Origin: an uncultured Parasphingorhabdus sp.
GTDB taxonomy: Bacteria; Pseudomonadota; Alphaproteobacteria; Sphingomonadales; Sphingomonadaceae
DNA length: 64,000 bases
Reading direction: 5' to 3'
NCBI RefSeq assembly: GCF_963975555.1
Contig: NZ_CAXBHH010000005.1
Location: 6,349-70,348 of the forward strand
Shown here one piece after another: positions 43,787 to 60,730 of the stretch. Under the pieces are notes generated by a model. The model was not told the DNA's origin, did not search any database, and saw only the letters and a program-made list of their open reading frames with translations. A program made the position numbers and the translations under genes. How positions within the stretch are numbered: the first letter of the stretch is position 1; the number at the start of each line of letters is the position of its first letter.

Positions 43787-43932
43787 CCATCCGACATCAA
43801 AGTCGATATTCTCCTATCCGAGACTCGGATTCTCTAACTAATTGGTGTAGTTAAGGGAATATCAGGGTCGCTATCGCGGTTGCCGGAGTCTGAGGGGACA
43901 AGGCAATGCACAAATATTGTGGGGAGAATATC

Positions 43933-46900
43933 GTGCACCGGACGAGTATCGGTTCAATAATATTGGCGTTGGGGTTGGCATCAACCCCGGTCACTGCTTT
44001 TGCCCAGGGCAAGCCGGTTTCGTTGCGTGACAGCTTTCCTATAGGCAACAGTCAGGGCGTTTTGTGCCAGGTGCAGGATCGCAGCATCGGGAACAAGGCG
44101 AAAGCCGATATGTTTGACCGCAGCTGGGCAATCGTCTGCCGCGATTCCGCAAGGCCGGTCGGTTTTGTCTATTCGTCCAGATCATCGGAGCAGAACCTGC
44201 TTGACCGCATTGCACCCCATCGCAACGAGCCGGTGACATGCACCACCAGCGGGACGCCGACAGCGATCGGTGAATTTCGCCATAACCAATGCCATCTGGC
44301 AACAGAACCGGTAGCCTATTCACAGTTTCTTGGCCGGGAAAATGGCGTTTCCTATGTCGCAGAGGGCTTGGCCGTTTACGACAGTGCGACGTTGCTGGCG
44401 CTCAAATCCATCTTGAATGACTCGATTGTCGAAGGCAAAATCGATGTCGCCTCAACCTCCGTCGAAGATCCATTTGCCTTTGCGCGGGTTCAGGCGGCGA
44501 CCCTGAAACCCGATCAGGCACTGGCCGAAGGGTACAGGCGGAATCTCAGCGGCGACTATGCCGAAGCCGCCGCCTTTTTCGAAACCCTGCAACAGCGCAC
44601 TTCCGGCCTGGAGGGGGAGGATATCAACCCCGACGAATATCTGATCAACCGGGCTTTGCAAAAATCCAATCTGGGCGAATTTGCCGAAGCCAATGAACTA
44701 TTCGAGCAAGCCAGGCAGCGGAACGACGCTGATCCGGTCACCGAACGGCTGCAACGGAATTTTGAAGCCATGCACCTGCTCAATCAGGGCCTGTTTGATG
44801 CGGCAGTCCAGCGGCTGAACGTCCCGCTAAAGACGTCGCAGGCGGAGCAAATCGCGCTGACAGAGCGGCTCGAGATTACCACTCCGATCTCCACCCGGAT
44901 AAACGGCAGCGTGCGTACCCGCAGCCTGCTCGGCTTCGTCAATGAAACGAAATTGAGCGAGCAGGAGCGCTCCGAGATAATCGATGCACAGGCCCTACAA
45001 CTTTTGGGCACGGCCCAGCGGATAAATGGCGATCGCACGACAGCACGTCAGGCGCTTATAACCGCTTATAACCGCGCCATCGCCGTTCGCGATGGCCGGG
45101 TCACGTCCATCACACGACTGAGAGTCCAGATACTCTCCGAACTGGCCCTGATTGCAGAAGCCGATGGCAACTTGGGCGAAGCGGAACAATTGCTCCGCGA
45201 CGGCCTCGATTTACTGAACATCCAATATCCGGAAACGCGGGCCGTCAACGGCACCAAGGCGCGGCTCGCAGCCTTTCTGTTGCGGCATGGAGAAGAATCC
45301 GAAGCACGCCGGTTATATGGTGAAGTCGTCGAAAACTCGCTGGGCAAGCGGAGTGCCATTTCGGGCATGGCGAACCAGCTCACGCCTTATTTCCGACTTC
45401 TTGCTGCAGATCCGGCTGCGGCCGAACAATTTTTCAAAGCTTCCCAGATCCTGGTTCGTCCGGGCGTTGCAGAAACACAGGCGGTCCTTTCGCGTGAGCT
45501 AAGCGCGGGCACAGATGATGCCGCGCGTCTGTTCAGGCAATCGACCAATCTGGCGCGCAGCATCGAACGACTGCGGATCGGTTTCGCGGCCTTGAACAAA
45601 ACCGATCCGTCGCCGTCGACTGTCAAGAAAAGCAATGATCTCGCGGCCGAAATTGAAACACTGGAGCGGAGCCAGCAGCTCACTCAGGTCCGGCTTTCCG
45701 AATTCCCGCAATATCGGGCGGTTGCCGCACGTTTTCTCGGCCTGGACGAGTTGCGCGCTACCCTGCAACCGGACGAAGCCTATATGCGTCTGACGGTCAT
45801 CGGCGACAATATTTTCATGTTCTATTCGGATCAGACAGAGGCGAAGACGTACCGTGTACCGTTGGATGAGAGCACACTCGACGGAAAGGTCGACACGCTC
45901 CGCGCATCAATATCGGCCTATGAAAATGGTCAATATGTCACCTATCCTTTCGATATCGAAGCATCCCGCGCGCTGTATACCGATCTTTTCGAACCGGTTT
46001 CGGATCGGCTTGCAGGCAAGAAACATCTGATATTCGAACCGGATGGCGCCATGCTCCGGTTGCCGATCAATCTGCTCGTTGCCGATGATGCCTCGGTCTC
46101 GCGATATCTTGCAGAAAGCGAAGCGGCCGATAGCGATCCGTTCGATTTCTCCGGTGTCAAATGGCTTGGCAGGAATCTCGATATCAGCACCGCGGTTTCC
46201 GCACGGGCCTTCGCCGATGCCCGTCAGGCTCCCCAGTCGAGTGCCTCTCGACAATATCTCGGTCTGGGCAAGAACCTGCCAATATTACCGGGTGCCAAAG
46301 CGACCGGTATCCGGGGCGGCTCCCAGAATATGAACGCCAAGTGCCAATGGCCACTCAGCCAGTGGGACAGTCCGATCTCCGATCGCGAACTGCGCGAAGC
46401 CCAGTCTCTGGTCGGCGCGGGAACTTCCGATATCCTGACCGGAGCGGCCTTCACCGATACCGCGATCCTGTCGAACGACAAAATCAGCGACTATCGCATC
46501 CTGCATTTTGCAACCCACGGTCTGGTCACAGCTCCTAATCCGTCCTGCCCGGCAAAGCCGGCGCTACTGACGTCTTTCGGGGAACAGGGTTCAGACGGGC
46601 TTCTCGCCTTTGATGAAATTTTTGATCTCAAACTCGACGCAGATATCGTCATTCTCTCCGCCTGCGATACAGCGGGCAAGGCGAGCATCGCGGCAACCCG
46701 TAACGCGGGTGTCAGCAGCGGCGGCGGAACCGCTCTGGACGGTCTGGTCCGATCCTTCATCGGAGCGGGCGGGCGTTCGGTACTGGCCAGCCACTGGCCT
46801 GCGCCGGATGATTATCGCGCCACAGAACGACTGATCAACGGATTTTTCAGCGACGGTCGCGGTCGCTCGATAACCGAAGCGCTCAGACTATCGCAGCTGG

Positions 46901-47052
46901 AACTGATGGATGATCCGGTCACTTCGCATCCTTATTACTGGTCGGGCTTCGCCTTGATCGGTGACGGTGCCCGGCCACTCTTGCCCGGCATGACGGACGC
47001 GGCGGCCAACAACGAAACGGCTGCTGCTGCGACGAAAGCAGCGCTGAAATAA
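43933..47052 (+). CDS. exported TPR-like + CHAT (caspase-like) protease
   Basis: GTG 43933 follows GGGGAG. Signal peptide ending AFA-Q, helical TPR-like middle region, C-terminal ILHFATHG (His codon 46516) and ILSACDT (Cys codon 46663), HPYYWSGF. Confidence 0.9.
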   Translation: MHRTSIGSIILALGLASTPVTAFAQGKPVSLRDSFPIGNSQGVLCQVQDRSIGNKAKADMFDRSWAIVCRDSARPVGFVYSSRSSEQNLLDRIAPHRNEPVTCTTSGTPTAIGEFRHNQCHLATEPVAYSQFLGRENGVSYVAEGLAVYDSATLLALKSILNDSIVEGKIDVASTSVEDPFAFARVQAATLKPDQALAEGYRRNLSGDYAEAAAFFETLQQRTSGLEGEDINPDEYLINRALQKSNLGEFAEANELFEQARQRNDADPVTERLQRNFEAMHLLNQGLFDAAVQRLNVPLKTSQAEQIALTERLEITTPISTRINGSVRTRSLLGFVNETKLSEQERSEIIDAQALQLLGTAQRINGDRTTARQALITAYNRAIAVRDGRVTSITRLRVQILSELALIAEADGNLGEAEQLLRDGLDLLNIQYPETRAVNGTKARLAAFLLRHGEESEARRLYGEVVENSLGKRSAISGMANQLTPYFRLLAADPAAAEQFFKASQILVRPGVAETQAVLSRELSAGTDDAARLFRQSTNLARSIERLRIGFAALNKTDPSPSTVKKSNDLAAEIETLERSQQLTQVRLSEFPQYRAVAARFLGLDELRATLQPDEAYMRLTVIGDNIFMFYSDQTEAKTYRVPLDESTLDGKVDTLRASISAYENGQYVTYPFDIEASRALYTDLFEPVSDRLAGKKHLIFEPDGAMLRLPINLLVADDASVSRYLAESEAADSDPFDFSGVKWLGRNLDISTAVSARAFADARQAPQSSASRQYLGLGKNLPILPGAKATGIRGGSQNMNAKCQWPLSQWDSPISDRELREAQSLVGAGTSDILTGAAFTDTAILSNDKISDYRILHFATHGLVTAPNPSCPAKPALLTSFGEQGSDGLLAFDEIFDLKLDADIVILSACDTAGKASIAATRNAGVSSGGGTALDGLVRSFIGAGGRSVLASHWPAPDDYRATERLINGFFSDGRGRSITEALRLSQLELMDDPVTSHPYYWSGFALIGDGARPLLPGMTDAAANNETAAAATKAALK

Positions 47053-49106
47053 TGACGGCAACCGCCACGCCATCAAACCCGGTTGATAATAATCGCGATG
47101 TGAAGGAAGGTGCCAGAGGTGTCTTGCAATCCATGCGCCGTCTGTTCGATCAGCTCGGGCCAATCCGTATCGGGTCCACGATAATATTCATGATCCTCGC
47201 GCTTCTCGTTGCGCGTTACAGCTGGACGACGCCTCTGATCCAGGAAGCCGAGCGTGCGCTCTATGATTTGCGCGCCTCCGTCTTTGCGCCGGAAGTGGAA
47301 AAAGACGAAAATATCGTGATGATCGTCTATAATGAAGACACGCTGAAGCTGACGGGCCAGCGGTCACCGGTTGACCGGACGATTTTGGCGCAGGCGCTGG
47401 AATCGATCGACGCAGCCAAGCCCAAATCCATCGGCATAGATATTCTGTTCACCATGCCGCAGGATGACGATGACCTGCTTATTTCGGCTTTCAAGAACAT
47501 GAAAACGCCGACTTTCCTTGCTTATGCCGATCCCAAGGAAAATCCCGAAATCGCATTTGCCGAGCATGAGTTCCTGCAACAATTTTTCAAAGAGGCCCGC
47601 AGCGAGAATGTTCAGCCGACTGATATAAAGCTGGAAACCGATAGCGACGGTGTCCAGCGCCGATGGACCCCGCACAGACCGGGTGCGCCGCCTTTCATGG
47701 CCATTGCGCTGACCGGCCCCAATCCGAAATTTGCCAATAATAGCGGCGCGATCCGCTATCATGTGCCGGCGGCGACCGATGTCCCCGTATTTGACAAATT
47801 CCCGATCGAGAATTTCGCTGATCCGGAAATTGCGGACATGCTCGGCTCGTTTATCGCGGGCAAACATGTGCTGATCGGCGGCGATTTCATCGATCGCGAC
47901 CGGTTTGAAACGCCGGTTGGCGGATTGACCAACATCAGCGGGGACGATGGCAAGATGATCGGACTGGAAGTGCATGCGCATATGCTCGCCCAGTTGCTCA
48001 ATGATGATCTGCCGACCCCGGTTGCCAACTGGGCCTTGTGGGTGGGGGCGCTAATCGTTGCAATTTGCGGTGGCCTCTCCGCTCTGATCGTCGGCAATGC
48101 TCTGAAGGTCGCCTTCATACTGCTCGGCCAATTTGTATTCTTTCTCACTTTTCCTTTCCTGCTGCAAAATATCGGGACCGATACGCTGACCCTGCCTGCC
48201 TTTGGCTGGGGTGTCGGATGGTTGCTTGGCTATGCCTCGGTCGGTTCGGCCGCGCGGACCATCAATTCCAAACAGCGGGCCTTTGCGCAGAATGCTCTGG
48301 GTAAATATCTGCCGAAATCGATTGCAAGCGAGATATTGAAAGATCCCGAGAAACTGGCGTTGCACGGGGAGAAGCGGAAAATATTCGCGGTGTTTACCGA
48401 TCTCGAAGGCTTTACCAAGCTGACCCACGCGATCGAGCCGGAAATGGTAGCAACCCTGCTGAACGATTATCTCGACCGGTTGAGCGATGTGGCGCTGGAA
48501 TATGGCGGCACTATCGACAAATTTGTCGGTGACGCGCTGGTCACCTTCTGGGGCGCTCCCATCGCCTATCCTGATGATGGGGAACGAGCGGCCAAAGCGG
48601 CCTATGCACTTTATCAGGCCGGTGAAGAGTTTCGCAAAAATGTACCCGAAGGGGTGCCGCCGATTGGCAGAACCCGGGTCGGCATGCATTATGGCGATGC
48701 CATCGTCGGCAATTTCGGCGGCGAAGGCCGTATCCAATATACCGCTCTCGGGGATGCCATGAATACCGCGGCACGCCTGGAAGCTGCCAACAAGACCCTG
48801 GGGACCAAAGTCCTGCTGAGCCGGGAAGCGATGGAACGAACCGGCCTCGACTGGTTTCGGCCAATGGGCCGGATCACGCTACGCGGTCGATCCACGCCGG
48901 TCGATGTGTTTGAACCTGTCCCCGACTGGGAAGAGAAAGATCGCGCAGCAGTGACCGCAGTCATAGCCGCGCACGAAATCGGTGATACTGGTTCTATTCA
49001 GGCACTGGGTGTCATGATCAAGGAAAATGGCGAAGACCAGGGTCTCGCCAATTTGCTCAAACGACTGCAAACGACAAAAAATGGAGAAAGCTATGCACTT
49101 GGATAA
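47052..49106 (+). CDS. CHASE2-domain membrane adenylate cyclase (class III)
   Basis: N-terminal TM, CHASE2 (IGIDILF, GLEVHAHMLAQ), 3 TM helices, FTDLEGFT, KFVGD and YTALGDAMNTAARLE. Confidence 0.93.
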   Translation: MTATATPSNPVDNNRDVKEGARGVLQSMRRLFDQLGPIRIGSTIIFMILALLVARYSWTTPLIQEAERALYDLRASVFAPEVEKDENIVMIVYNEDTLKLTGQRSPVDRTILAQALESIDAAKPKSIGIDILFTMPQDDDDLLISAFKNMKTPTFLAYADPKENPEIAFAEHEFLQQFFKEARSENVQPTDIKLETDSDGVQRRWTPHRPGAPPFMAIALTGPNPKFANNSGAIRYHVPAATDVPVFDKFPIENFADPEIADMLGSFIAGKHVLIGGDFIDRDRFETPVGGLTNISGDDGKMIGLEVHAHMLAQLLNDDLPTPVANWALWVGALIVAICGGLSALIVGNALKVAFILLGQFVFFLTFPFLLQNIGTDTLTLPAFGWGVGWLLGYASVGSAARTINSKQRAFAQNALGKYLPKSIASEILKDPEKLALHGEKRKIFAVFTDLEGFTKLTHAIEPEMVATLLNDYLDRLSDVALEYGGTIDKFVGDALVTFWGAPIAYPDDGERAAKAAYALYQAGEEFRKNVPEGVPPIGRTRVGMHYGDAIVGNFGGEGRIQYTALGDAMNTAARLEAANKTLGTKVLLSREAMERTGLDWFRPMGRITLRGRSTPVDVFEPVPDWEEKDRAAVTAVIAAHEIGDTGSIQALGVMIKENGEDQGLANLLKRLQTTKNGESYALG

Positions 49107-49893
49107 GATTGATCCGGTAAAATCCGGCGGAGCCCTTCCCCTTCTTGCGAAAGCCGCGCTCGGTTCGCTTCTGCTGTTCGGCGCTGGCGGGGTTGCCATG
49201 GCGCAGAATATGGTCGTCCGTTCGACCGGCCCTTCGGCCAGCAGCTATCCTGCGGGCAAAAAAATGGCGAATGATGCAAAAGTCTCGCTGAAGGCTCAAG
49301 ATCAGGTAACCATTTTGACCAAGTCAGGCACGCGCGTTCTCAAAGGTCCGGGAACCTTTTCGCTTGCACAGGGCGCAGGGTCGGCAACCAGCGCATCACG
49401 CCGGCTGTCGAGCTTTATCAGCAATCGGGGCAGCAGCCGGGCGAGAACCGGAGCCGTTCGCGCTGCCGGTAGTGTCACGGTCGAAACGCCGAACAATCCC
49501 AACCTCTGGTATCTTGACGTGACCAAGGGCGGAAAATTCTGTGTTGCCGATCCGGATGCGCTGGTTGTCTGGCGGCCCGACTACACAGGGTCGGCGACGG
49601 CTTCGATTGTCGAACCGAAGGAAGGCAATGTCACCGAAATCGCATGGCGGAAAGGCAATCCGCTGAAAGCCTGGCCGAAGGATGTTCTGCCAGTCACCGA
49701 CGGTGCGAGCTATCGCCTGCTCGGATCGAACGTTCCACAATCGGTCGAGGTGAATTTCGTGGTGCTGCAAAACCAGCCTACCGACCTCGATGATACCGCC
49801 TCCATGTTGATAGAAAACGGATGTAGCGGGCAACTGGATTTGCTGGTTGAAACACTTGATCTGAACAGCGGGGAACCGGCAGATCAGGGTTAG
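49093..49893 (+). CDS. exported protein of unknown function
   Basis: ATG 49093 follows GGAGA and overlaps the cyclase end by 14 nt. Signal peptide ending AMA-Q, beta-rich N-domain, GAVR linker, Cys pair. Confidence 0.8.
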   Translation: MHLDKIDPVKSGGALPLLAKAALGSLLLFGAGGVAMAQNMVVRSTGPSASSYPAGKKMANDAKVSLKAQDQVTILTKSGTRVLKGPGTFSLAQGAGSATSASRRLSSFISNRGSSRARTGAVRAAGSVTVETPNNPNLWYLDVTKGGKFCVADPDALVVWRPDYTGSATASIVEPKEGNVTEIAWRKGNPLKAWPKDVLPVTDGASYRLLGSNVPQSVEVNFVVLQNQPTDLDDTASMLIENGCSGQLDLLVETLDLNSGEPADQG

Positions 49894-49995
49894 CTTATGA
49901 AGAATATCTGCCGTCCGGAATGAGGGCTGGACGGCAGAATGGGGATAAGATGGTTCAGTGGGTCGTACATGGATCATCGAAAAACGGGGACTAAT

Positions 49996-51789: not shown

Positions 51790-51841
51790 TGAAATCATTG
51801 TTCGACCAGAGAATAGCCGCAGTTCAACCGAGGACAGCAAG

Positions 51842-54800
51842 ATGACGACAAGACCGCAAAGCAGAAGCCCAAAAGCGACCACAGGCCCTGGCCGGAAAAA
51901 AATGCGGTGGCTGTCCGGAAGTTCTATGGCGGCGGCAGCCGTCCTGCTGGCGGCCGCGCCGCAAGTGGCAAAGGCGCAAACACCGTTGGGCGCGCCAATA
52001 CCGGGATTGAACGAGGCACATGCTTTCACCCCTGCTGACGGGCAGGCGTTTCAGGCCGGTGTCACGAGCCCGACGGGAGGCGCGGTTTTTACGGGTCCGC
52101 GTACGACCAATATGGATCAGCTACAAATATCGCTGAGCGAAGTGGTGTTAAACTGGACACCGCTTGACACGGATGCACCGACTTTTGGTGCCGATGGTCT
52201 GGTCAACAACCCGATTAATATATTACCCAGCGGTAGAACTCTGCAGTTTGTGTCTAACGGCACAAACTATACGGTTCTGAACCGTATTTTGCCGGCGGTA
52301 GCCGCCGATGGCAGACCGGTACAGTTCAACGGCACTGTCGAAAGTTTTTTAGACCTTGGCGCAACGACGCCGGGCGGCAACATCTGGTTCTATAGTCCGG
52401 GCGGAATCATCGCCGGCGCCACCAGTACATTTGACGTCGGCAGCCTAGTGCTGACCACAAATGATATAAATACAACTGGTGGACTGTTGGGTGTAGGCGG
52501 TGAAATGCGCTTCAGCGGCATCGCTGGCAGCAAATCAGCGATCATTATCGAAAATGGTGCGCAGATCAATGCGCTCAACAATGGCAGCAGTTACGTCGCC
52601 ATGGTTGCCCCCCGCGTCGTTCAGGGCGGTGGCGTGAATGTCGATGGGTCGGTTGCCTATGTCGCAGCCGAACAGGCTGACCTGACCATCAACAACGGAC
52701 TTTTCGATATTACAATCGGCGTGGGAACTTCCGATGCGAATGGCATTGTCCATAGCGGGACGACAACCGGGCCGTCATCAACCCCGAGTTTTAACGGCGC
52801 GGGCGCTGTAACCAACGCGGACGCTCAGGCCATATATATGGTTGCTGTGCCAAAAAATGATGCTGTAACAATGCTGATCGGAGGAGCTGTCGGTTATCAG
52901 CAAGCTGCCAGTGCAGGCATCGTCAACGGCAATATAGTGCTCAGTGCTGGTGGCAATGTTTCTGTTGGTGGCTCCGACGTTGCGCCGACAAACCTGATTG
53001 AAGAAAATCTAACTTCGACCGCAGCGACCAATATCCAGATCGGTGGCGGCGGCGTGACCACTTTTGATTCGACGCTCGAATTATTCGCTGCAGACAGCAT
53101 TACATTCTCGGCCGAGTCAGATGCGGATTCGATCATCATTTCCAACGACGTCGGTTCGCAGGATTTGAACCTGACCGCGGGCAATGAGATCAATCTCAAT
53201 ACGTCCGGCGGTGGCCAGATATTCGTCAATGGCGACATAAATCTGACCGCAGGGACCGGCGCGACGGGGGGCAATATAAACCTAAACATTGATCGCACCG
53301 GCTTTGGGTTTCAGGCCAATACCGGACTGCGTCTGACCGGCGATTTGAATTTCGACAGCCGTGGCATCGGTGCCGACGATTTCTTTACGGTCATCGACAA
53401 CGGCGGTACCGGGATAGGCCAAGATGCCACGGGCGGAGACGTCACCATCAACATCACCAATGGCGGCCTGTTGGATGTCGGCGGAAATACAACGTTCCTG
53501 GCCAGCGCCCAGGGCGGCAAAGGCGAGATTCAAAACGGCTTTGCGCAAGCAGGCGATATCACGTTCAACATGGACGGCGGCACCGCGCAATTTGGCGGCA
53601 ACGTCAATTTCAACGCCTCGGCCATAGATGCGGGTTCCGGAAAAATTGGCGGAAACGGACCCGGTTTACTGGGCAGTGACAGCATCGCCGGTAATGTCGG
53701 ACTGAACCTGTCGGGCGGCGAGATGACGGTCAGCGGCACTCTCCAGATAACAACCGACGCGGAACGTACCAGCGGTTCGGATAGTACAGTAGTCCAGAAC
53801 AATGTCGCCGTCGCAGGCGCAGTTGATCTTGCCATCTCAGGCGGGCTCCACAATTTTGGAAGCGTGGGAATTTCCAGCGTTGCAAGCGGAGGGGAATCAT
53901 TTGACGCCGGCGGCAACAACATTGCCGGTAACCTCAGCCGCGGCGCGGTTAATTTTGCCGTCAGCAACTCCGGCACCGATGTATCAATAACCAACAACAT
54001 GTTTATTGACGCCAGAACATCCGGCAATATTGTGAGCGATCCTGCGATAGACGCGGTAACGATCAGCATTCTCAACACAAGCGGCGAGGGTGCAGGACTC
54101 AATGTTACGAACGAAATCTCGATACAAACCGAGGCGTCCAATGGTCTTGCCGGCAGTAATCTCACCTCCGGATCAGTCTCCATAAGTGCCGATAACGGCG
54201 ATATCAGTTTCGGTAGTCTTGCCGTAGACACCAGCTCGACAGTTGGATTTTCAGCGACCGAATTGAGTGACGGGCTAATTGCCGGAGACATCGATATCGT
54301 AGCGCAAAATGGTGGCATTATATCAAGCGGTAATGTCGATTTATATGCCAACGTAACTACCCAGGCGACCGAAGGGGTCAACGCGGCCGGCGGGAATGTG
54401 CTGATTCACGCAAATGATGGCTTCATCGATTTCACCGGATTTTTCAATGCCGATGTAAGCGCACAGGCAGGCGCAACAGACCCGTCGACAGTAACCAATG
54501 CACAGGGCGGAACCGCCAGAATATTGCTGGAAGGCACATCGCCGATAAGCAGCAGAATCGATTTTGTGGACATTAATTTCAATTCGGACGGTCTGATCGA
54601 TACCAATCTGGAAACGACTGTACCTTTTGAAGGTGATGGTGGCACCGGTTCAGGCGGTAGCGTTATATTTGACCTTTTCGGCGGTACATTCGTCGCAGGT
54701 GATATTGTAACCAGCGCCAGTGGCTCAGGCGGTCGAGGCGGAGCCATAGTGACATTGCCCGCCCCGAATGTGGCGGCGCCTTTCGCTTCTGCTTTCGCGG

Positions 54801-57800
54801 CACCAGAGGATCTTAGCGTGGTAAACGCTGCCTTTGCGGGCGGCGTATCGGCAGGTGACGGCGGCGATGGCCAGGGCGGTGATGTAACATTCAACCTGAA
54901 CGGGGGCAATGCGACCGTTACCAACCTCACTATTTCAGCAAATGGCTTCGGCGGTAACGGAGCCAATGGCGATATAAACAACGGCACCTCCGGCGGATCC
55001 GGCGGTCGCGGGATCGGCGGCAATGCAGTTTTCAACGCACAAACCGGGAATCTGACCGTCACCAATACGCTAACCGTGTCTGCCGAGGGTAATAATCAGA
55101 ACATCGCCCCTTATGGATCTTACGGAGCGGGTGGTTATGGTTATGCCTCTGACGGCGGCAATGGTGGCGACGGGATCGGCGGCACCGCAACCTTCAACCT
55201 CGACGGTACCGCAACAATCAATGCCACTAACATCGTCATCTCCACCAGCGCCGATGGCGGATATGGCGGAGATAGCACCGACGAGTTCAGCGGAGCGGCT
55301 CCCGCCGGGCTTGGCGGCCGTGGCGGCAACGGGACCGGCGGCGATGCCACGTTCAACAATAATGCGGGTACTCTGGGTTTCGACCAGCTTTCGGTAACTT
55401 CAGTCGGAACCGGCGGGGATGGCGGCGATATTTTTGGTGCAAACACCGGCGAAGCGGATAATTTCGGGGGCGATGGCGGCATCGGAACCGGCGGGAATGC
55501 TACCATCAACATCAATCAGGATGATCTCAACAACCCTGTTTACGTCGTCGACGCCAGCGGCGTCGGTGGCGATGGCGGCTATGGCGTGGACGGAGGCGAT
55601 GGCGGCGCTGCCTTTGGCGGCACAGCGGCAATCAATATCAACAATGCTACGGCGAATCCTGATGACCCAACCATCATGGCCAATGCTACCGGCGGCAACG
55701 GCGGTGAAGGCAGGATAGATACTAACCCCTCGGCCGACCCTTCAATAACGGGTGTGGGCTACAGCGGCGACGGCGGCAATGCCACGGCGGGGACGGCGCG
55801 TTTGCAAGTCACCGGCGCTGGCGGCAATATCGATCTCGGTTCCATCACATTGGAAGCCAATGCTACCGGCGGCAACGGGACGGACGGTTACTACAGATAC
55901 GGCGCTGGCATAATCGGCGGCCGTGGTGGATCGGGCGGCGACGCTTCTGGCGGCACGGTAGAGCTGATCGCGCGGACCGGCGGAACGCTGTCATTAACAT
56001 CCGGTGATTTTACCATGACCAGTACCGGCATCGGCGGAAATGGCGGCGATGGTGCGGACTCCGCTGACAACGCAGCTGGCGACGCCGGCAACGGCGGCAA
56101 CGCGACTGGCGGCACCGGTCGCCTGCTTGCGCAGGGCGGCACAATTTCCGGTAACAATCTGGACATAACCACAGCCGGTCTTGCCGGTGATGGCGGAATT
56201 GGCGGTATAGTTTTGAATCCCGGTTTCGGAACAGCCGGTGTCGACGGCACAGGCGGAGACGGCACCGGGGGAACCGGCATTATCGAGGTTCAGGAAGGCA
56301 GTCCCGGAATACTGAGTTTTGCCGACGTTACCATAAATGCCAACGGCACGGGCGGTGGCGGACCTATTGCCGGTGTCGGCGCGGGTGGGCGTATCGAAAT
56401 TTCCGACAGTTCGACCGATCCGGCAGGACTGATAAGCTTGGGCAGCCTGGCAGCCAGTGCCTTTGATGCCGCAATCGGGACCGGGACCGGCTCGGGTTCG
56501 GCCCCTCTTGGCGGCTTCTTCACAACAGCCAACAGCGGAGCTGTATCGATTCTCGGTGATCTGACCGTGGATGTCGCCGGCAATATCGAATATGATCTCG
56601 ACGGCGACGCGCAAATGACGGTGGGCGGCAATGCTACGCTGAACAGCGGTCAGAATATCCTGATCAACCATACGAACAATACTACGTCGGTAAATTCCAT
56701 CGATGTGTCGAGCGTCTTCGCGGCGACAAGTCAGGGCGATTTCATCAGCACAGACGGCTCCCGGATCAACGCGGGTGGCTCGGCTTCGGTTCGCGCAGAG
56801 CAGAATGCCACCGTCGCCGATCTAGCCGGTGTCGGCCTGGTCGATATTTCTGCGCTGCAGAATGTCGCCGTCAACAATGCTGCCGTCACTGGCGTTCCCG
56901 CCGTGGTCTCCGTCGGATCGCTGTCTTACGTCGTGGCACCACAATTGACGATCAACGCAGGATATGACCCTGCAGTATCACCTCCTCCAATCTTCGATCC
57001 AAGTTTCAATGCCACAATAACCGGCGACGTCACATCGACCGGGTTCATCGCCATCGGCGCGGGCGGCAACGCCTATTTCCGCGCCGGCAGCAATGTCGTG
57101 TCTGACAATGGTCTGGCGGTCCGTACCGGCGATGATATCATCATTGAATCCGGAGCAAGCCTGACCGCTGCCAATAATCCATCGACATCGCCCGACGCTT
57201 CTTCCACGTTTACCAATCCGGGCAATCTGATCTTGCAGGCCGGGGACTTTACCGGTCTGTTCGGCAGTCCCATCGGAACACTCGGCACCACGCCGCTGAC
57301 GCCGATTGCCTCGATTGTTGCAGCAGGCGATCTCGACGCAAACGGCTTCGCGGTCGTCATGACCGCCAATGCAGTCGACGGTCTCGGCGGCACGATCACC
57401 GCCAGTTCGATCAGCGTGGACATCAACGATGCTCCTCCGACTGGAACGGGCCAGATTGATGACAACGGGCTGCTGAGCGCACAGTGCCTGCAGGGCAATG
57501 TCTGCCTGGGCACGCTCAACGCGGACAATCTGGTCTACATCGGCCGGGCGAGCAACAATGACGTGATCCAGGCCATCATCGAAAGCGGGACGGTTTCGGC
57601 CAACGATATACTGGTCACCACCCGCCGCGACATTGTCATGGGAACGACGGGCATCGCGACGGTTCTTGATGCGTCGAACCAGTTCATTGTCGAAAGTACC
57701 GAAGGCAACGTCGACCTGCGCAATGCGTCGGTCAGCAGCACCAGCATATTGATTAGCGCTGTCAATGGCAGCCTACTTGGCTCCGGATCGCTGACCAGCG

Positions 57801-60730
57801 ACAGTGATATCGGTATCACCGTGGCGGCAGATATCAACGCAGCATTGATCGACACCGGCGGCCAGCTAACCACCGTCGGGTCAGTCGACGGTGATCTGGA
57901 AAACAGCTACACCGTGCCGGGTAGCATTGACGTCGGCACACTGACGCAAGGCGGGGATATCGATATCAACATCCTCGCGGGCGGCGACATCAGCTTTGGC
58001 CAGATCAATCTGCCTGCCGACCGCAGCATTGCGCTGACCGCCGCTACCGGCGATGCCTTCCTCGGCAGCAACAGCAGCGCGACTTCGGTCTCGGTTCTTG
58101 GCAATAATGTCGGCTTCCACAATCTTCAGTCTAGCGGAGCCATCACGCTCAACGCCACGAGCGGCGACCTGACCGGTTCCGGTCCCGGTGACCTGACGGC
58201 AGGCGGCGCGATCAATCTCGACGCTTCGAATGCGATCAATATCGGCAACGCCACGACGACAGGTATTGGACAGAGCATCAATCTGGTCGCCAATGATGTT
58301 ACCGCTGGCGCTCTCGAAACAGATAGCGGCGATATTTTGGTTTCAGCGGCACAGAATATCACGCTCGTTTCCGCTGTCACCGGAACCGGCACCCCAACCG
58401 CCGCCTCGATAGGTTTGCTCGCCGGCGGCAATATTTCCTCTACCGGAGCCCTCAATGCCGGTGAAGATGTGGCGATCCGGGCGCTGGGCGATGTCGCTCT
58501 GGGGACGGTATCCGCAGGCGACGATTTCACGGTTCAGGCCGATGGCGCGATTACGCTGGATAGTGCAACCACCAGCGGCACCGGAATCGACCTGTTCGCC
58601 TTGGCGTTCAACACGGCCAATGCCGGTCAGGCCGGATCGATCGCCTTTGCCAGTGAAACGATCACGGGCTCGAACATCCAGCTGGATAGCGGCAGCGATG
58701 TGACGGCTACCGGTGCGCTCAATGCTGATAATGATATCAATATCACCGCAACCGGAACGCCAACTGTTGCCAATGCAATCAGCGGCAGCAACACAAGCAT
58801 TTCGGGCACTTCCGTTGTGCTCAACAACGGAACTATCGGCGGCAACCTGACACTCGCCGCTCTCGCGGGCGATATCGATGGCAATGGTACCGTGGTTGTA
58901 GGCGGCGACATCGATCTCGATGCCACCGGCAATGTCGGCTTTGGCGATCTTGATGCGCAGGGAGGCACTTTCACTGTCGATGCGGGCGGTAATATAGACT
59001 TCATCAATGCTTCGAGCGGCAGCGCCATGAGCCTGAATGCTGGCGGCGACATCAACGGCGGCGATCTGACTTCCGGTGGCGATATCGCGATCGACGGCGG
59101 CAATGATGCCAATCTGGGGTTCGTTGACAGCATCACAAATGTGAGTGCCCAATTGCTGGGAGGCTTTGTTGCAGACACAGTGAGTGCGTCCCAGACGGGT
59201 CAGGGTGAAGTCGACATCAGCGCTGACAACGGAATCGATATAGCCAATGTCTCGGGCAATGACATATATCTGACCGCCGCAACCGGCCTGGTCAATGTCA
59301 CCAACAACGTCGATGTGACCAATAGCATCATCGCATCGGGCGAAGCCGTCTCTATTGTCACGCAACAAGATACGACGGTCAGCGCCGAAGCTACCAATGG
59401 TGATGTCGGGCTATTCTCGGCAGCCGGTTTGATAATTCAAGGCGCGGAAGCCACAGGCGACATCAGCATGAGCGCCGGCAATGTTCTGATCGACGGTTTG
59501 GTGAGTGCGGACAATCAACTGCTGATAACCGCGGATGGGTTGATAGACATTCAGGCTGAAACAATCGGCAACACTATTGAGACGGTCAGCGCCGATATGA
59601 ATATCGGTTCTACCGGCAGCCTTGGTCTGAACGCTTTGACCAGCGATATCCGCATATCCAGCAACGGCAGCACGCAGATGATGCTCGGCGACGGGACGGA
59701 TCTGACCGGCACCTTCTCGCTCAACAATGACGAATTCAGCCGGATCCGTTCGGGCGGCGATTTGACAATCTCCGCCGCCGAGACAGGGCTCAGCGGATTT
59801 GACCTGACGATTCAGGAGCTTTCGGCAAGCGCGTTTTCGGAAGGCAATTTCGCTGAAACTGGAAACCTGAATCTCTCAGCAGTGCAATCGATAAGGGTGA
59901 GCGGCAATCTGTCTGTACAGGGTGGTTTGGACTCTAACCTCAATCTCGCTGCTGGCGATAATCTGTTAGTTAACGCCGCAACCGGCTCCATTGCCATGGG
60001 AAATGACAGCAGTCTGTCAGGGAACCTCTCCCTCACCGCACGCAATATCTACGCGATGACGGATCAGGCTTTTGACGATATTCAGGGCATGACCACCGCC
60101 GGAATTGACGAGCGACTTGCCCAGAATGACGGCAATGTCCGGGAGAACGGATTCATTGTGGCAGACGCGATCAGCGTCACTCTGCTTGCCAGCCAGTTCT
60201 ACGTTCAAAATACCGGCAATGGCACTGACTTCGATGCCCGGCGAGGCTTTGTGGCCGGCGCTGGCGGTCTGAGCATCAATGCTGGTCCAAGTGGTATCAC
60301 ACCGATTGTCATCAATGGCACAGTCAACGGCGCAACCGGTATTGCGGCCATTCCAGCGACAACGATCACGGGAGCCGGCTACAATCCACAATCTACAATC
60401 AACGGCTGTGTTATCGCCAACCCTGCGAGTTGCGCGCCTACTCCAACACCTACTTCTGAACCGGCAATACCCGGGATAGATGATCCGGTGCAGGATGTGA
60501 TTGAAGAAGAGGTCACACCGGAGCAATATGCGGCGGATCCGCTCGCGAGCAATCTGATCGAGATCAAGGAAATTGAAGATCTGGCTGATGATCCGTTGAT
60601 CGACGAACCGGTAACCGGCGCGGGTAATGATGATCTCTGGGTGAACGGATTTGATTGCGAGCTCGATAATAGCGGAAAATGCCAGACCGAAGACGATGAG
60701 GACGAAGAAGAACTCGAACCGGCAGAATGA
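51842..60730 (+). CDS. giant TpsA / filamentous-haemagglutinin-like exoprotein, 2962 aa
   Basis: Extended signal peptide, TPS domain (VLNW, VLNRI, NGTVES, IWFYSPGGI), Gly/Asn/Thr-rich beta-helix repeats, acidic tail. Directly follows tpsB. Confidence 0.92.
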   Translation: MTTRPQSRSPKATTGPGRKKMRWLSGSSMAAAAVLLAAAPQVAKAQTPLGAPIPGLNEAHAFTPADGQAFQAGVTSPTGGAVFTGPRTTNMDQLQISLSEVVLNWTPLDTDAPTFGADGLVNNPINILPSGRTLQFVSNGTNYTVLNRILPAVAADGRPVQFNGTVESFLDLGATTPGGNIWFYSPGGIIAGATSTFDVGSLVLTTNDINTTGGLLGVGGEMRFSGIAGSKSAIIIENGAQINALNNGSSYVAMVAPRVVQGGGVNVDGSVAYVAAEQADLTINNGLFDITIGVGTSDANGIVHSGTTTGPSSTPSFNGAGAVTNADAQAIYMVAVPKNDAVTMLIGGAVGYQQAASAGIVNGNIVLSAGGNVSVGGSDVAPTNLIEENLTSTAATNIQIGGGGVTTFDSTLELFAADSITFSAESDADSIIISNDVGSQDLNLTAGNEINLNTSGGGQIFVNGDINLTAGTGATGGNINLNIDRTGFGFQANTGLRLTGDLNFDSRGIGADDFFTVIDNGGTGIGQDATGGDVTINITNGGLLDVGGNTTFLASAQGGKGEIQNGFAQAGDITFNMDGGTAQFGGNVNFNASAIDAGSGKIGGNGPGLLGSDSIAGNVGLNLSGGEMTVSGTLQITTDAERTSGSDSTVVQNNVAVAGAVDLAISGGLHNFGSVGISSVASGGESFDAGGNNIAGNLSRGAVNFAVSNSGTDVSITNNMFIDARTSGNIVSDPAIDAVTISILNTSGEGAGLNVTNEISIQTEASNGLAGSNLTSGSVSISADNGDISFGSLAVDTSSTVGFSATELSDGLIAGDIDIVAQNGGIISSGNVDLYANVTTQATEGVNAAGGNVLIHANDGFIDFTGFFNADVSAQAGATDPSTVTNAQGGTARILLEGTSPISSRIDFVDINFNSDGLIDTNLETTVPFEGDGGTGSGGSVIFDLFGGTFVAGDIVTSASGSGGRGGAIVTLPAPNVAAPFASAFAAPEDLSVVNAAFAGGVSAGDGGDGQGGDVTFNLNGGNATVTNLTISANGFGGNGANGDINNGTSGGSGGRGIGGNAVFNAQTGNLTVTNTLTVSAEGNNQNIAPYGSYGAGGYGYASDGGNGGDGIGGTATFNLDGTATINATNIVISTSADGGYGGDSTDEFSGAAPAGLGGRGGNGTGGDATFNNNAGTLGFDQLSVTSVGTGGDGGDIFGANTGEADNFGGDGGIGTGGNATININQDDLNNPVYVVDASGVGGDGGYGVDGGDGGAAFGGTAAININNATANPDDPTIMANATGGNGGEGRIDTNPSADPSITGVGYSGDGGNATAGTARLQVTGAGGNIDLGSITLEANATGGNGTDGYYRYGAGIIGGRGGSGGDASGGTVELIARTGGTLSLTSGDFTMTSTGIGGNGGDGADSADNAAGDAGNGGNATGGTGRLLAQGGTISGNNLDITTAGLAGDGGIGGIVLNPGFGTAGVDGTGGDGTGGTGIIEVQEGSPGILSFADVTINANGTGGGGPIAGVGAGGRIEISDSSTDPAGLISLGSLAASAFDAAIGTGTGSGSAPLGGFFTTANSGAVSILGDLTVDVAGNIEYDLDGDAQMTVGGNATLNSGQNILINHTNNTTSVNSIDVSSVFAATSQGDFISTDGSRINAGGSASVRAEQNATVADLAGVGLVDISALQNVAVNNAAVTGVPAVVSVGSLSYVVAPQLTINAGYDPAVSPPPIFDPSFNATITGDVTSTGFIAIGAGGNAYFRAGSNVVSDNGLAVRTGDDIIIESGASLTAANNPSTSPDASSTFTNPGNLILQAGDFTGLFGSPIGTLGTTPLTPIASIVAAGDLDANGFAVVMTANAVDGLGGTITASSISVDINDAPPTGTGQIDDNGLLSAQCLQGNVCLGTLNADNLVYIGRASNNDVIQAIIESGTVSANDILVTTRRDIVMGTTGIATVLDASNQFIVESTEGNVDLRNASVSSTSILISAVNGSLLGSGSLTSDSDIGITVAADINAALIDTGGQLTTVGSVDGDLENSYTVPGSIDVGTLTQGGDIDINILAGGDISFGQINLPADRSIALTAATGDAFLGSNSSATSVSVLGNNVGFHNLQSSGAITLNATSGDLTGSGPGDLTAGGAINLDASNAINIGNATTTGIGQSINLVANDVTAGALETDSGDILVSAAQNITLVSAVTGTGTPTAASIGLLAGGNISSTGALNAGEDVAIRALGDVALGTVSAGDDFTVQADGAITLDSATTSGTGIDLFALAFNTANAGQAGSIAFASETITGSNIQLDSGSDVTATGALNADNDINITATGTPTVANAISGSNTSISGTSVVLNNGTIGGNLTLAALAGDIDGNGTVVVGGDIDLDATGNVGFGDLDAQGGTFTVDAGGNIDFINASSGSAMSLNAGGDINGGDLTSGGDIAIDGGNDANLGFVDSITNVSAQLLGGFVADTVSASQTGQGEVDISADNGIDIANVSGNDIYLTAATGLVNVTNNVDVTNSIIASGEAVSIVTQQDTTVSAEATNGDVGLFSAAGLIIQGAEATGDISMSAGNVLIDGLVSADNQLLITADGLIDIQAETIGNTIETVSADMNIGSTGSLGLNALTSDIRISSNGSTQMMLGDGTDLTGTFSLNNDEFSRIRSGGDLTISAAETGLSGFDLTIQELSASAFSEGNFAETGNLNLSAVQSIRVSGNLSVQGGLDSNLNLAAGDNLLVNAATGSIAMGNDSSLSGNLSLTARNIYAMTDQAFDDIQGMTTAGIDERLAQNDGNVRENGFIVADAISVTLLASQFYVQNTGNGTDFDARRGFVAGAGGLSINAGPSGITPIVINGTVNGATGIAAIPATTITGAGYNPQSTINGCVIANPASCAPTPTPTSEPAIPGIDDPVQDVIEEEVTPEQYAADPLASNLIEIKEIEDLADDPLIDEPVTGAGNDDLWVNGFDCELDNSGKCQTEDDEDEEELEPAE

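What the first reader, a model, noticed from the sequence alone, without database searches (positions are those of the whole stretch)
43933..60730. Five-gene CHAT protease / CHASE2 adenylate cyclase / unknown exported protein / TpsB / giant TpsA module: candidate envelope signalling and adhesin-control system
Seen: five co-oriented genes. CHAT and cyclase are coupled by TAATG, cyclase and ORF3 overlap by 14 nt, and the remaining gaps are about 100 and 50 bp. Every product is predicted to be exported or membrane-bound, and the protease and cyclase catalytic residues are intact. Known: Pseudomonas CdrAB is a TPS adhesin released by the periplasmic protease LapG; Sinorhizobium CHASE2 cyclases CyaD1/CyaD2/CyaK signal through the CRP-like Clr; CHAT proteases are caspase-family. 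I know of no characterised system that wires these parts together. Inference: the protease processes TpsA, ORF3 or the CHASE2 sensor, so adhesin secretion or surface contact is reported as cAMP, with possible feedback through the upstream CRP-type box.
Basis: partly seen in the sequence, partly recalled or inferred. Interest (0 to 1): 0.88.

Follow-up and report, generated by a model that had tools for sequence, protein, structure and literature searches.

The report
Adhesin, protease and cAMP-sensor operon
A marine Parasphingorhabdus bacterium carries a five-gene cluster, conserved in many relatives, that joins a giant secreted surface protein and its transporter to a caspase-like periplasmic protease, a membrane sensor that makes cAMP, and a small exported protein of a new family that appears to link them; no described system is wired this way.

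Summary
Five co-oriented genes lie at 43933-60730:
- an exported TPR-CHAT protease with an intact His/Cys pair;
- a CHASE2 class IIIb adenylate cyclase, joined to the protease gene by TAATG;
- ORF3, a 266-aa exported protein with no Pfam family, overlapping the cyclase by 14 nt;
- TpsB;
- a 2962-aa TpsA whose TPS domain is real but divergent.

The cluster keeps this order in several Sphingomonadales genera, including at other genomic sites and on a megaplasmid. All five genes also occur in a different order in Niveispirillum (Rhodospirillales).

The cluster is modular. Cyclase+ORF3 is a core pair: 16 of 66 well-flanked loci have only these two. CHAT+TpsB+TpsA come and go as a set, with at least 5 changes and never a mixed state. 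That trio occurs without the cyclase in Sphingomonas parapaucimobilis. TpsA-CHAT-ORF3 occurs without an adjacent cyclase in two metagenome contigs. ORF3 is therefore the shared link.

A CRP-type palindrome upstream (43772-43785) keeps its half-sites in the 41 Parasphingorhabdus-clade loci where it was found. cNMP-binding or Crp-family genes adjoin three relatives.

Best reading, with the mechanism inferred: CHAT acts on the conserved periplasmic tail of TpsA, ORF3 couples this to the CHASE2 cyclase, and cAMP feeds back on the operon. I found no literature on this wiring. No transcript or biochemical data were available.

The parts
43771..43786 (+). CRP-type palindrome TGTGACAACCATCACT (core GTGA-N6-TCAC), about 160 nt upstream of the CHAT start
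   Evidence: This is the only GTGA-N6-TCAC match in the window. A box with at most 2 mismatches was found at about -156 to -172 in 41 of the 44 Parasphingorhabdus-clade loci scanned. GTGAC and TCAC are invariant, with a variable spacer, in all 21 upstream regions aligned. The box is absent upstream of the cyclase in the two-gene loci.
43800..43932 (+). Promoter/leader region with further conserved blocks (GTCGATA..CTAT, GACTCGG, GGGTCGC) and a GGGGAG ribosome-binding site
   Evidence: Alignment of 21 upstream regions. The function of these blocks is not established.
43933..47052 (+). Exported TPR-CHAT cysteine protease, 1039 aa (alternative ATG start at 43906). Signal peptide, N-terminal alpha/beta domain with 4 invariant Cys (about residues 30-162), TPR-like helical region (about 175-595), CHAT domain (about 604-1015) with H862/C911
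   Evidence: Pfam CHAT 1.6e-54. The dyad and the four Cys are invariant. AF2 model pLDDT 71. Foldseek hits: Csx29 3.4e-11, periplasmic TPR-CHAT of DdvA 1.9e-10, separase 2e-9.
47052..49106 (+). Receptor adenylate cyclase, 684 aa: TM1 (about residues 35-57), periplasmic CHASE2 (49-340), further membrane segments from residue 329, cytoplasmic class IIIb cyclase domain (443-613)
   Evidence: Pfam hits, PDB CyaB 3r5g 7e-31 and catalytic motifs, hydropathy, TAATG junction.
49093..49893 (+). ORF3, an exported 266-aa protein of an unnamed family. Signal peptide, small beta domain (38-90), helix, disordered linker with the invariant RxRTGAVRG motif (nt 49438-49470), then an Ig-like beta sandwich with two helices and invariant C150/C244
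   Evidence: No Pfam, NCBIfam or PADLOC hit. AF2 model pLDDT 74.5. No PDB fold match below E=0.01. The family has 1712 clusters at 50% identity with E<=1e-3. ORF3 lies next to the cyclase in every locus with enough sequence. It is homologous to the ORF between CHAT and the cyclase in Niveispirillum (hhalign 99.2%).
49996..51789 (+). TpsB outer-membrane transporter, 597 aa, with ShlB-type POTRA domain and Omp85-type barrel
   Evidence: ShlB 2.9e-17 and POTRA_2 1.7e-6. Signal peptide, GRGY in L6 and an FFDLMG motif.
51842..60730 (+). Giant TpsA exoprotein, 2962 aa: long signal peptide, divergent TPS domain (about residues 60-330), Gly/Ala/Thr/Ser/Asn-rich repetitive body with no other domain hit, conserved C-terminal region
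   Evidence: Weak TPS hits, orthologues reaching 7.7e-12, hhalign 95.6% to a true TPS domain, composition and absence of VENN, absence of TAAG.
60392..60730 (+). TpsA C-terminal tail: STINGC-x7-C cysteine pair (C2856/C2864), Pro/Thr linker of variable length, VQDVIEEEV, the PLIDEPVTGAGNDDLW motif (nt 60593-60640), acidic end
   Evidence: In the alignment of nine TpsA C-termini the Cys pair is invariant and the tail motif nearly so. A related INGC..C and PIIGANNEELL tail occurs in the cyclase-less trio of S. parapaucimobilis. Coordinates.

Best explanation
This is a conserved, modular envelope system of Alphaproteobacteria. It is built from a two-partner secretion pair with its own periplasmic caspase-fold protease, joined through a small periplasmic protein to a receptor adenylate cyclase.

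Shown: the parts, their intact catalytic and secretion motifs, and their co-inheritance.

Inferred, step by step:
1. TpsB exports the giant TpsA. The conserved C-terminal tail of TpsA (a Cys pair, a Pro/Thr linker and an invariant acidic motif) stays in the periplasm. This resembles the retained tail of FhaB and the C-terminal anchor of CdrA.
2. The soluble periplasmic TPR-CHAT protease recognises and cuts that tail, and so controls whether TpsA is retained, matured or released.
3. ORF3 is encoded next to the cyclase, next to the protease, or next to both. It binds the periplasmic CHASE2 domain and sets cyclase activity, and it is the element through which the protease/TpsA state reaches the cyclase.
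4. cAMP acts through a CRP-family or other cNMP-binding protein encoded elsewhere in this genome. That protein acts at the conserved GTGA-N6-TCAC box upstream of the operon and closes a feedback loop.

The cyclase+ORF3 pair also works as a stand-alone sensor in genomes that lack the other three genes.
For: - Parts and motifs.
- The same five-gene order occurs in Rhizorhapis (different flanking genes), Alterisphingorhabdus, Blastomonas and a Sphingobium megaplasmid, and in 50 of 66 well-flanked loci from species genomes.
- All five genes occur in another order (TpsB-TpsA-CHAT-ORF3-cyclase) in Niveispirillum cyanobacteriorum. TpsA-CHAT-ORF3-cyclase is seen in N. fermenti and in a distinct metagenome contig, where TpsB lies outside the fetched sequence.
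- CHAT, TpsB and TpsA are gained or lost together at least 5 times, with no mixed state. This holds even though CHAT lies upstream and TpsBA downstream of the cyclase-ORF3 pair.
- A TpsB-TpsA-CHAT trio exists without the cyclase.
- A cyanobacterial CHAT protein carries ShlB-type POTRA domains and sits next to DUF928 and CHASE2 genes.
- CHAT and ORF3 overlap by 4 nt in two contigs that lack an adjacent cyclase. The cyclase and ORF3 overlap by 14 nt here.
- The TpsA tail is conserved.
- The box is conserved with a variable spacer. A Crp/Fnr gene lies directly upstream of the module in Sphingobium herbicidovorans. cNMP-binding genes adjoin two relatives.
- There is a precedent for a periplasmic TPR-CHAT domain in transmembrane signalling: DdvA (PMC11506125).
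- Other CHASE2 cyclases also have an exported partner encoded beside them: a FecR-domain protein in Methylocystis and smc02177 in S. meliloti (PMC5498481).
Against: - There is no transcript, protein or cAMP evidence. Only DNA runs hold the locus.
- The modules can be separated: 16 loci have only cyclase+ORF3, and one has only the trio. Cross-talk is therefore not obligatory.
- The ORF3 linker motif is equally conserved where no CHAT gene is adjacent.
- No CRP-family gene lies in the window.
- Box matches with at most 2 mismatches came only from the Parasphingorhabdus clade. Three of the five Novosphingobium full loci carry a different palindrome, and Rhizorhapis and Sphingobium show none.
- The substrate of the protease is unknown. 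Niveispirillum-type TpsA tails carry a different conserved motif.
- Periplasmic retention of the TpsA tail is assumed by analogy.
Confidence: 0.45

Rival explanations
1. Top-down control only. The CHASE2 cyclase and ORF3 sense an external or envelope cue unrelated to TpsA. cAMP acts through a CRP-like regulator at the upstream box and simply switches on the adhesin genes. CHAT is a dedicated maturation or release protease for TpsA. Nothing flows from the adhesin or protease back to the cyclase.
For: - Cyclase+ORF3 function alone in 16 loci.
- The conserved box is found upstream of five-gene loci but not upstream of the cyclase in two-gene loci.
- CHAT always travels with TpsBA.
- In S. meliloti, CHASE2 cyclases drive exported-protein genes through Clr (PMC5498481).
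Against: - ORF3 is translationally coupled to CHAT in contigs with no adjacent cyclase.
- The cyclase-ORF3 pair is interleaved between CHAT and TpsBA and joined to CHAT by TAATG.
- Neither point rules this model out.
Confidence: 0.3
2. Two unrelated modules, a sensor pair and an adhesin-plus-protease trio, lie side by side at a variable genomic site and have no functional connection.
For: Each module occurs without the other. The site between the nitroreductase gene and cysS is variable in content.
Against: - All five genes recur together in another order in Rhodospirillales, and at different genomic sites or on a plasmid in Rhizorhapis and Sphingobium.
- The genes are interleaved and coupled by overlaps.
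- CHAT-ORF3 overlaps occur without a cyclase.
- CHAT / DUF928 / CHASE2 neighbourhoods occur in a cyanobacterium.
Confidence: 0.12
3. TpsA is a toxin (CDI-type or haemolysin-type), or the cluster is an anti-phage conflict system using a CHAT protease and a Pycsar-like cyclase.
For: The cyclase domain hits PycC models (8.5e-29). CHAT proteases occur in defence systems, and the closest folds are Csx29 and DdvA. A TIR gene adjoins the Calothrix CHAT/DUF928/CHASE2 set.
Against: - The PycC hits reflect the shared class III fold. The specificity residues are of the adenylate type, Lys/Thr.
- No PADLOC hit exists for the other four proteins.
- The protease and ORF3 carry signal peptides.
- TpsA has no VENN motif and no C-terminal toxin or immunity pair, and its C-terminus is conserved rather than polymorphic.
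- The locus sits among housekeeping genes across genera.
Confidence: 0.05

Closest known systems
Pseudomonas CdrAB / LapG-LapD (protease-controlled type Vb adhesin; PMC4694147, PMC8346871)
   Same: A giant TpsA adhesin is exported by a TpsB partner. A periplasmic cysteine protease acts, or here is proposed to act, on the C-terminal end of the adhesin. The whole is tied to a cyclic-nucleotide second messenger. A Cys pair lies near the TpsA C-terminus.
   Different: The protease is a caspase-fold TPR-CHAT enzyme, not a LapG (DUF920-type) protease. There is no LapD-like receptor and no TAAG site. The messenger is cAMP made by a CHASE2 receptor cyclase encoded in the operon, not c-di-GMP. An extra periplasmic protein, ORF3, is present.
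Sinorhizobium meliloti CyaD1/CyaD2/CyaK - Clr cascade (PMC5498481)
   Same: CHASE2 receptor adenylate cyclases of an alphaproteobacterium (26-27% identity to CyaK). Exported proteins of unknown function are encoded beside the cyclase and controlled by it. Output runs through a CRP-family regulator binding a palindrome.
   Different: The neighbouring proteins differ: a FecR-domain protein smc02177 and smc02178, rather than ORF3. No ORF3 homologue lies near cyaK. No CHAT hit from Sinorhizobium, and so none from pSymB, appeared among the listed plasmid matches or the organism tally. No TPS pair is described there. The Clr box TGTT-N8-AACA differs from GTGA-N6-TCAC. No regulator gene is adjacent in this window.
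[quoted passage not shown]
   Same: A periplasmic TPR-CHAT architecture with a His-Cys dyad used in envelope signal transduction. It is the second-best structural match (1.9e-10).
   Different: DdvA is membrane-anchored, carries a cytoplasmic zinc anti-sigma domain, and controls an ECF sigma factor and defence genes. The protein here is a soluble exported protease with an extra N-terminal Cys-rich domain, and it is linked to TPS and cAMP genes.
Bordetella FhaB/FhaC (PMC4542190)
   Same: A giant beta-helical TpsA with a Pro-rich region and a conserved extreme C-terminus. In FhaB that C-terminus remains periplasmic and is removed by regulated proteolysis.
   Different: FhaB is processed by serine proteases such as the autotransporter SphB1 (PMC6070651), not by a CHAT enzyme. 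There is no sequence similarity in the tail, and no cyclase or ORF3 partner.
Cyanobacterial CHAT / DUF928 / CHASE2 gene neighbourhoods (Calothrix plasmid)
   Same: A large TPR-CHAT protein, a small exported protein of unknown function and a CHASE2 sensor are encoded together. The CHAT protein even carries ShlB-type POTRA domains.
   Different: DUF928 is not detectably homologous to ORF3. The CHASE2 protein has no cyclase domain. No separate TpsA/TpsB pair is present. The set is uncharacterised: one paper mentions DUF928.

Membership tests
Two-partner secretion (type Vb) system | TpsB transporter with ShlB-type POTRA domains and an Omp85-type barrel carrying the L6 (V/I)RG(Y/F) motif | tested here: met
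   ShlB 2.9e-17 and POTRA_2 1.7e-6. GRGY and FFDLMG motifs and a signal peptide.
Two-partner secretion (type Vb) system | TpsA with an N-terminal TPS secretion domain, encoded next to TpsB | tested here: met
   The window protein alone is below threshold (19.6 against 33.5 bits). However, 3 of 10 orthologues hit Pfam TPS (7.7e-12), and the profile aligns to a true TPS domain at 95.6%. The conserved VLNRI and SPGGI motifs are present. The gene follows tpsB after 52 nt.
Two-partner secretion (type Vb) system | TpsB-dependent export of TpsA | not testable with these tools
   Needs secretion assays.
CHAT / caspase-fold (clan CD) cysteine proteases | CHAT domain with a conserved His-Cys catalytic dyad | tested here: met
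   Pfam CHAT 1.6e-54. H862 and C911 are invariant.
CHAT / caspase-fold (clan CD) cysteine proteases | TPR-CHAT architecture of the separase/craspase type | tested here: met
   Foldseek hits of the full-length model: Csx29 3.4e-11, DdvA 1.9e-10, separase 2e-9. The model has pLDDT 71 and global TM-scores are low (0.2-0.4).
CHAT / caspase-fold (clan CD) cysteine proteases | Proteolytic activity and a defined substrate | not testable with these tools
   Needs biochemistry.
Class III adenylate cyclases with a CHASE2 sensor | CHASE2 domain between membrane segments, followed by a class III catalytic domain with metal-binding Asp pair, substrate Lys plus Asp/Thr, and transition-state Asn/Arg | tested here: met
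   Pfam hits. D450, K490, D494, T564, N571 and R575. Hydrophobic segments flank CHASE2.
Lap/CdrA-type protease-released adhesin systems | LapG-family protease, LapD-type c-di-GMP receptor, and a TAAG-type cleavage site in the adhesin | tested here: not met
   The protease is CHAT. None of the five gene products has a LapD-type architecture; the only signalling protein is a CHASE2 cyclase. TpsA has no TAAG, PAAG or AAAG. The system may work like one, but it is not a member.
S. meliloti CyaD1/D2/K-Clr cascade | Clr regulator and Clr box (TGTT-N8-AACA / HGTYHCNNNNGRWACW), with smc02177/smc02178-type neighbours | tested here: not met
   No CRP-family gene lies in the window. The box is GTGA-N6-TCAC. 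ORF3 has no FecR hit and no homologue near cyaK.
Pycsar / other anti-phage systems | Cyclase plus a cNMP-activated effector, with other components matching defence models | tested here: not met
   Only the cyclase fold hits PycC. No effector is present. The other four proteins have no PADLOC hit.
Contact-dependent inhibition (CdiA/CdiB) | VENN motif, a polymorphic C-terminal toxin and a downstream immunity gene | tested here: not met
   There is no VENN. The C-terminus is conserved. The next gene is cysS.
DUF928 (PF06051) | Sequence homology of ORF3 to DUF928 | tested here: not met
   No Pfam hit for ORF3. hhalign probability 0.5% against a Calothrix DUF928 protein.

The most novel reading that the evidence does not exclude
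ORF3 is a periplasmic switch protein that a caspase-like protease cuts or sequesters according to the state of the surface TpsA filament (secreted, anchored, engaged or released). It then turns the CHASE2 adenylate cyclase on or off. That would make this an outside-in pathway reporting surface contact or adhesin status as cAMP. It would also give the first defined input for a CHASE2 domain and the first physiological substrate of a periplasmic CHAT protease.
Probability: 0.2. Interest if true: 0.85.

Novelty: new variant of a known kind. Interest (0 to 1): 0.72.

Why it matters
CHASE2 is a widespread sensor domain, and I know of no defined ligand for it. The S. meliloti work still calls the plant signal for its CHASE2 cyclases unknown (PMC5498481). 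Periplasmic CHAT proteases have no known substrate.

For two-partner secretion adhesins, the only case I know in which a second messenger controls release by a periplasmic protease is CdrA with LapG and c-di-GMP.

This cluster puts a candidate partner (ORF3) beside a CHASE2 cyclase. The ORF3 family has no Pfam model and about 1,700 clusters at 50% identity. The cluster also puts a candidate substrate (the TpsA tail) beside a CHAT protease, in culturable marine and soil Sphingomonadales. Natural two-gene, three-gene and five-gene variants already exist as built-in controls.

If the wiring holds, it would be a cAMP-based counterpart of the Lap system and a tractable model for how bacteria report the state of a surface filament to the cytoplasm.

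Tried and rejected
- ORF3 got no hit in Pfam, NCBIfam or PADLOC, either as a single sequence or across 36 family members.
- Foldseek of the ORF3 model against the PDB gave only generic Ig-like matches with E>0.01.
- ORF3 against DUF928, and against the 279-aa ORF upstream of the S. parapaucimobilis trio, showed no homology.
- An ORF3 HMM found nothing near S. meliloti cyaK or in the other fetched loci, apart from Niveispirillum.
- Profile and single-sequence searches of the PDB with the TpsA N-terminus and with the CHAT domain found nothing by sequence.
- No CRP homologue lies in the window, using E. coli CRP (sequence from memory) and the Sphingobium Crp/Fnr protein as queries.
- The idea that S. 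meliloti SMb20495 is a CHAT protein got no support. No Sinorhizobium record appeared among the 60 listed plasmid matches or the organism tally.
- CHAT contexts in Pseudosulfitobacter, Agrobacterium vitis and Azospirillum plasmids show caspase-family or other neighbours. They have no TPS or CHASE2 genes, so the link is not universal for CHAT proteins.
- The search for RNA-seq evidence returned only DNA or metagenome contigs with flat depth.
- The promoter and terminator consensus scan was at chance level and gave no operon boundary.
- The first two attempts to scan genomes with broad ORF3 alignments failed for lack of a conserved stretch. A narrower alignment worked.
- The tandem-repeat search in tpsA found nothing notable at the DNA level.
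Full report
**1. What is in the window**

Five co-oriented ORFs fill 43933-60730 on the + strand.
- The CHAT stop and the cyclase start share TAATG.
- The cyclase and ORF3 overlap by 14 nt if ORF3 starts at 49093.
- ORF3 and TpsB are 102 nt apart, and TpsB and TpsA 52 nt apart.

The flanking genes are ordinary housekeeping genes: a class A PBP, cobT and a nitroreductase upstream, and cysS downstream. Best matches of ORF3 and CHAT name Parasphingorhabdus (96% and 90% identity).

**2. The five products**

(a) The CHAT protein.
- Pfam CHAT scores 1.6e-54, with TPR hits N-terminal to it.
- A hydrophobic N-terminal segment ending in AFA-Q looks like a signal peptide.
- H862 and C911 are invariant, even in a 26%-identical Niveispirillum homologue. 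So are four cysteines in the N-terminal domain.
- The full-length AF2 model (pLDDT 71) has an alpha/beta domain, a long helical-repeat region and the CHAT domain.
- Foldseek ranks the craspase TPR-CHAT Csx29 first (3.4e-11), then the periplasmic TPR-CHAT of the M. xanthus anti-sigma factor DdvA (1.9e-10), then separase.

(b) The cyclase.
- It has a CHASE2 domain and a class III cyclase domain.
- The metal, substrate and transition-state residues are intact and of the class IIIb Lys/Thr type. The best solved relative is P. aeruginosa CyaB.
- Hydrophobic segments flank CHASE2.

(c) ORF3.
- No family is found in any library.
- The model (pLDDT 74.5) shows a signal peptide, a small beta domain and a helix. 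A disordered linker follows, carrying the invariant R-x-R-T-G-A-V-R-G motif. The C-terminal part is an Ig-like sandwich with two helices and two invariant cysteines.
- No solved structure matches below E=0.01.
- A profile search of 1.84 billion representatives finds 1712 clusters at E<=1e-3. Among the 150 best hits, most are 225-275 aa and a few are tandem doubles. This is a large family without a Pfam model.

(d) TpsB is a normal ShlB/FhaC-type transporter.

(e) TpsA.
- Its own TPS domain falls below curated thresholds.
- Orthologues pass, and the N-terminal profile aligns with a true TPS domain.
- It has no VENN motif and no LapG-type TAAG site.
- Its C-terminus is conserved. The elements are a STINGC-x7-C cysteine pair, a Pro/Thr linker whose length varies greatly between species, and a nearly invariant PLIDEPVTGAGN(D/E)DLW motif.

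**3. Synteny**

The same order occurs in four other settings.
- Rhizorhapis, with different flanking genes.
- Alterisphingorhabdus.
- Blastomonas.
- A Sphingobium herbicidovorans megaplasmid, where a Crp/Fnr-family regulator gene lies directly upstream.

A genome-collection scan with an ORF3 alignment found relatives in 271 matched stretches of the species-genome collection, and 80 loci were kept. Laying the window's proteins on them showed two locus types at the same chromosomal site.
- 50 of 66 well-flanked loci have all five genes.
- 16 have only cyclase+ORF3, with CHAT, TpsB and TpsA all missing.

No locus is mixed, even though CHAT lies on one side of the pair and TpsBA on the other. On a neighbour-joining tree of the cyclases the pattern needs at least five changes.

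**4. Beyond Sphingomonadales**

- A Niveispirillum cyanobacteriorum plasmid carries TpsB, TpsA (Pfam TPS 7.5e-25), TPR-CHAT, a 226-aa ORF and a CHASE2 cyclase, in that order. The 226-aa ORF is an ORF3 homologue (hhalign 99.2%).
- TpsA-CHAT-ORF3-cyclase is also seen in N. fermenti and in a distinct metagenome contig. In that contig a protein with two cNMP-binding domains is encoded next to the cyclase.
- Two further contigs have the TpsA tail, then CHAT, then ORF3 (with 4-nt overlaps), and no adjacent cyclase. In one of them a stand-alone cNMP-binding protein follows.
- A Sphingomonas parapaucimobilis plasmid has TpsB-TpsA-CHAT with neither cyclase nor ORF3, inside a type VI secretion cluster. 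Its TpsA tail resembles the one here.
- A Calothrix plasmid encodes a POTRA-POTRA_2-TPR-CHAT protein next to DUF928, CHASE2 and TIR genes.
- A Methylocystis CHASE2 cyclase is preceded by a large FecR-domain protein whose gene overlaps it.

The links therefore form a chain. In every TPS-linked locus examined, TpsA goes with CHAT. ORF3 goes with CHAT, with the cyclase, or with both. CHASE2 sensors in general have an exported partner encoded beside them.

**5. The upstream box**

- TGTGACAACCATCACT lies about 160 nt before the CHAT start.
- One match in 64 kb is not significant by itself.
- A box with at most 2 mismatches was found at about -156 to -172 in 41 of the 44 Parasphingorhabdus-clade loci scanned. 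In the 21 upstream regions aligned, GTGAC and TCAC are invariant while the spacer varies, which is the usual footprint of a protein-binding site.
- Two-gene loci lack it upstream of the cyclase. Three of the five Novosphingobium five-gene loci have TGTG(C/G)-N6-GCACA instead, and two have no match.
- It fits the CRP consensus rather than the Clr box of S. meliloti (PMC5498481).
- No CRP-family gene is in the window.

**6. What could not be shown**

- No RNA data hold this sequence. The runs that do are DNA with flat depth.
- Consensus scans for promoters and terminators are at chance level.
- Protease substrate, ORF3 binding partners, cAMP output and the direction of signalling are all inferred.
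- The ORF3 linker motif is conserved even without an adjacent CHAT gene. It cannot be taken as a CHAT site.

**7. Interpretation**

The co-inheritance data make a functional link among the five genes very likely; my estimate is about 0.85. The specific mechanism is less certain, at 0.45. In that mechanism CHAT acts on the periplasmic tail of TpsA, ORF3 couples protease or adhesin state to the CHASE2 cyclase, and cAMP feeds back through a CRP-type site.

The main rival keeps the same parts but lets information flow only from the cyclase to gene expression (0.3). Mere adjacency (0.12) and toxin or defence readings (0.05) fit the data poorly.

**8. Comparison with known systems**

- The cluster works most like the CdrAB/LapG/LapD system. 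It fails every membership feature of that system: a different protease family, no LapD, no TAAG site, and cAMP rather than c-di-GMP.
- It shares the CHASE2-cyclase-to-CRP logic of the S. meliloti CyaD1/D2/K-Clr cascade, but not its neighbouring genes or its box.
- It shares the periplasmic TPR-CHAT idea with DdvA, but not the anti-sigma architecture.
- Library searches found no paper joining CHAT, CHASE2 and two-partner secretion, and only one paper that mentions DUF928.

I rate it a new variant of a known kind: a protease-controlled type Vb adhesin tied to a second messenger. It contains one protein family that is new to the databases searched.

Noticed in passing
L072 10694-11461 (also L073, L080, L082, L083): Novosphingobium five-gene loci have about 1 kb extra between ORF3 and TpsB. 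In L072 it holds a second, tandem ORF3 paralogue (255 aa), whose linker motif reads SVRAGAVRGAG.
   Followed up: partly
window 58200-58900: A contig from one public run (X8) skips 699 nt in frame inside tpsA. This suggests length polymorphism of the repetitive body of TpsA between strains. TpsA length also ranges from 1401 to 3687 aa between genera.
   Followed up: no
L089/L090 (Sphingomonas parapaucimobilis plasmid NZ_CP155750.1, about 260.6-273.7 kb): A TpsB-TpsA-TPR-CHAT trio, followed by a CPBP/Rce1-like intramembrane protease gene, sits between tssH and tssK of a type VI secretion cluster. The cluster also encodes a Ser/Thr kinase and a PP2C phosphatase.
   Followed up: partly
L091 5224-12767 (Calothrix sp. 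336/3 plasmid): A 1415-aa protein fuses Omp85- and ShlB-type POTRA domains to TPR-CHAT. It lies next to DUF928, a CHASE2 protein with no output domain detected, and a TIR-domain protein.
   Followed up: partly
L094 4249-9785 (Methylocystis iwaonis plasmid): A 1221-aa FecR-domain protein gene overlaps the start of a CHASE2 adenylate cyclase gene. This is another case of an exported partner encoded beside a CHASE2 sensor.
   Followed up: no
L008 (3.7-kb contig) and L020, same Parasphingorhabdus MAG: One contig has cyclase-ORF3-cysS directly, at 88-94% identity to the window. Another contig of the same MAG has the full locus with TpsB and TpsA. This points to strain heterogeneity or a very recent deletion of tpsBA.
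   Followed up: no
window 43800-43900: Besides the CRP-type box, three other short blocks are conserved in the leader across 21 loci: GTCGATA..CTAT, GACTCGG and GGGTCGC. Their roles are unknown.
   Followed up: no
window 44020-44420 (CHAT residues about 30-162): The CHAT protein has a separate N-terminal alpha/beta domain with four invariant cysteines (C45, C69, C103, C120) and no family assignment. It is conserved even in Niveispirillum.
   Followed up: partly
window 49438-49470 and 60593-60640: The invariant ORF3 linker (RARTGAVRAAG) and the invariant TpsA tail (PVTGAGNDDLW) share a T-G-A core. The match is too short to exclude chance, but it would be worth testing as a common recognition site.
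   Followed up: no
L095 12741-13496, L098 4888-5349, L004 10064-10702: Cyclic-nucleotide-binding proteins adjoin related loci. They are a two-domain cNMP-binding protein, a stand-alone 153-aa cNMP-binding protein, and a Crp/Fnr-family regulator. The first two appear to lack a DNA-binding domain.
   Followed up: partly
L001 17030-20394 and L004 25095-28432: In Rhizorhapis and Sphingobium the module is followed by the same extra genes: a cytochrome c family protein, an HbpS-like haem-binding protein and a hypothetical protein. These are absent from the window.
   Followed up: no
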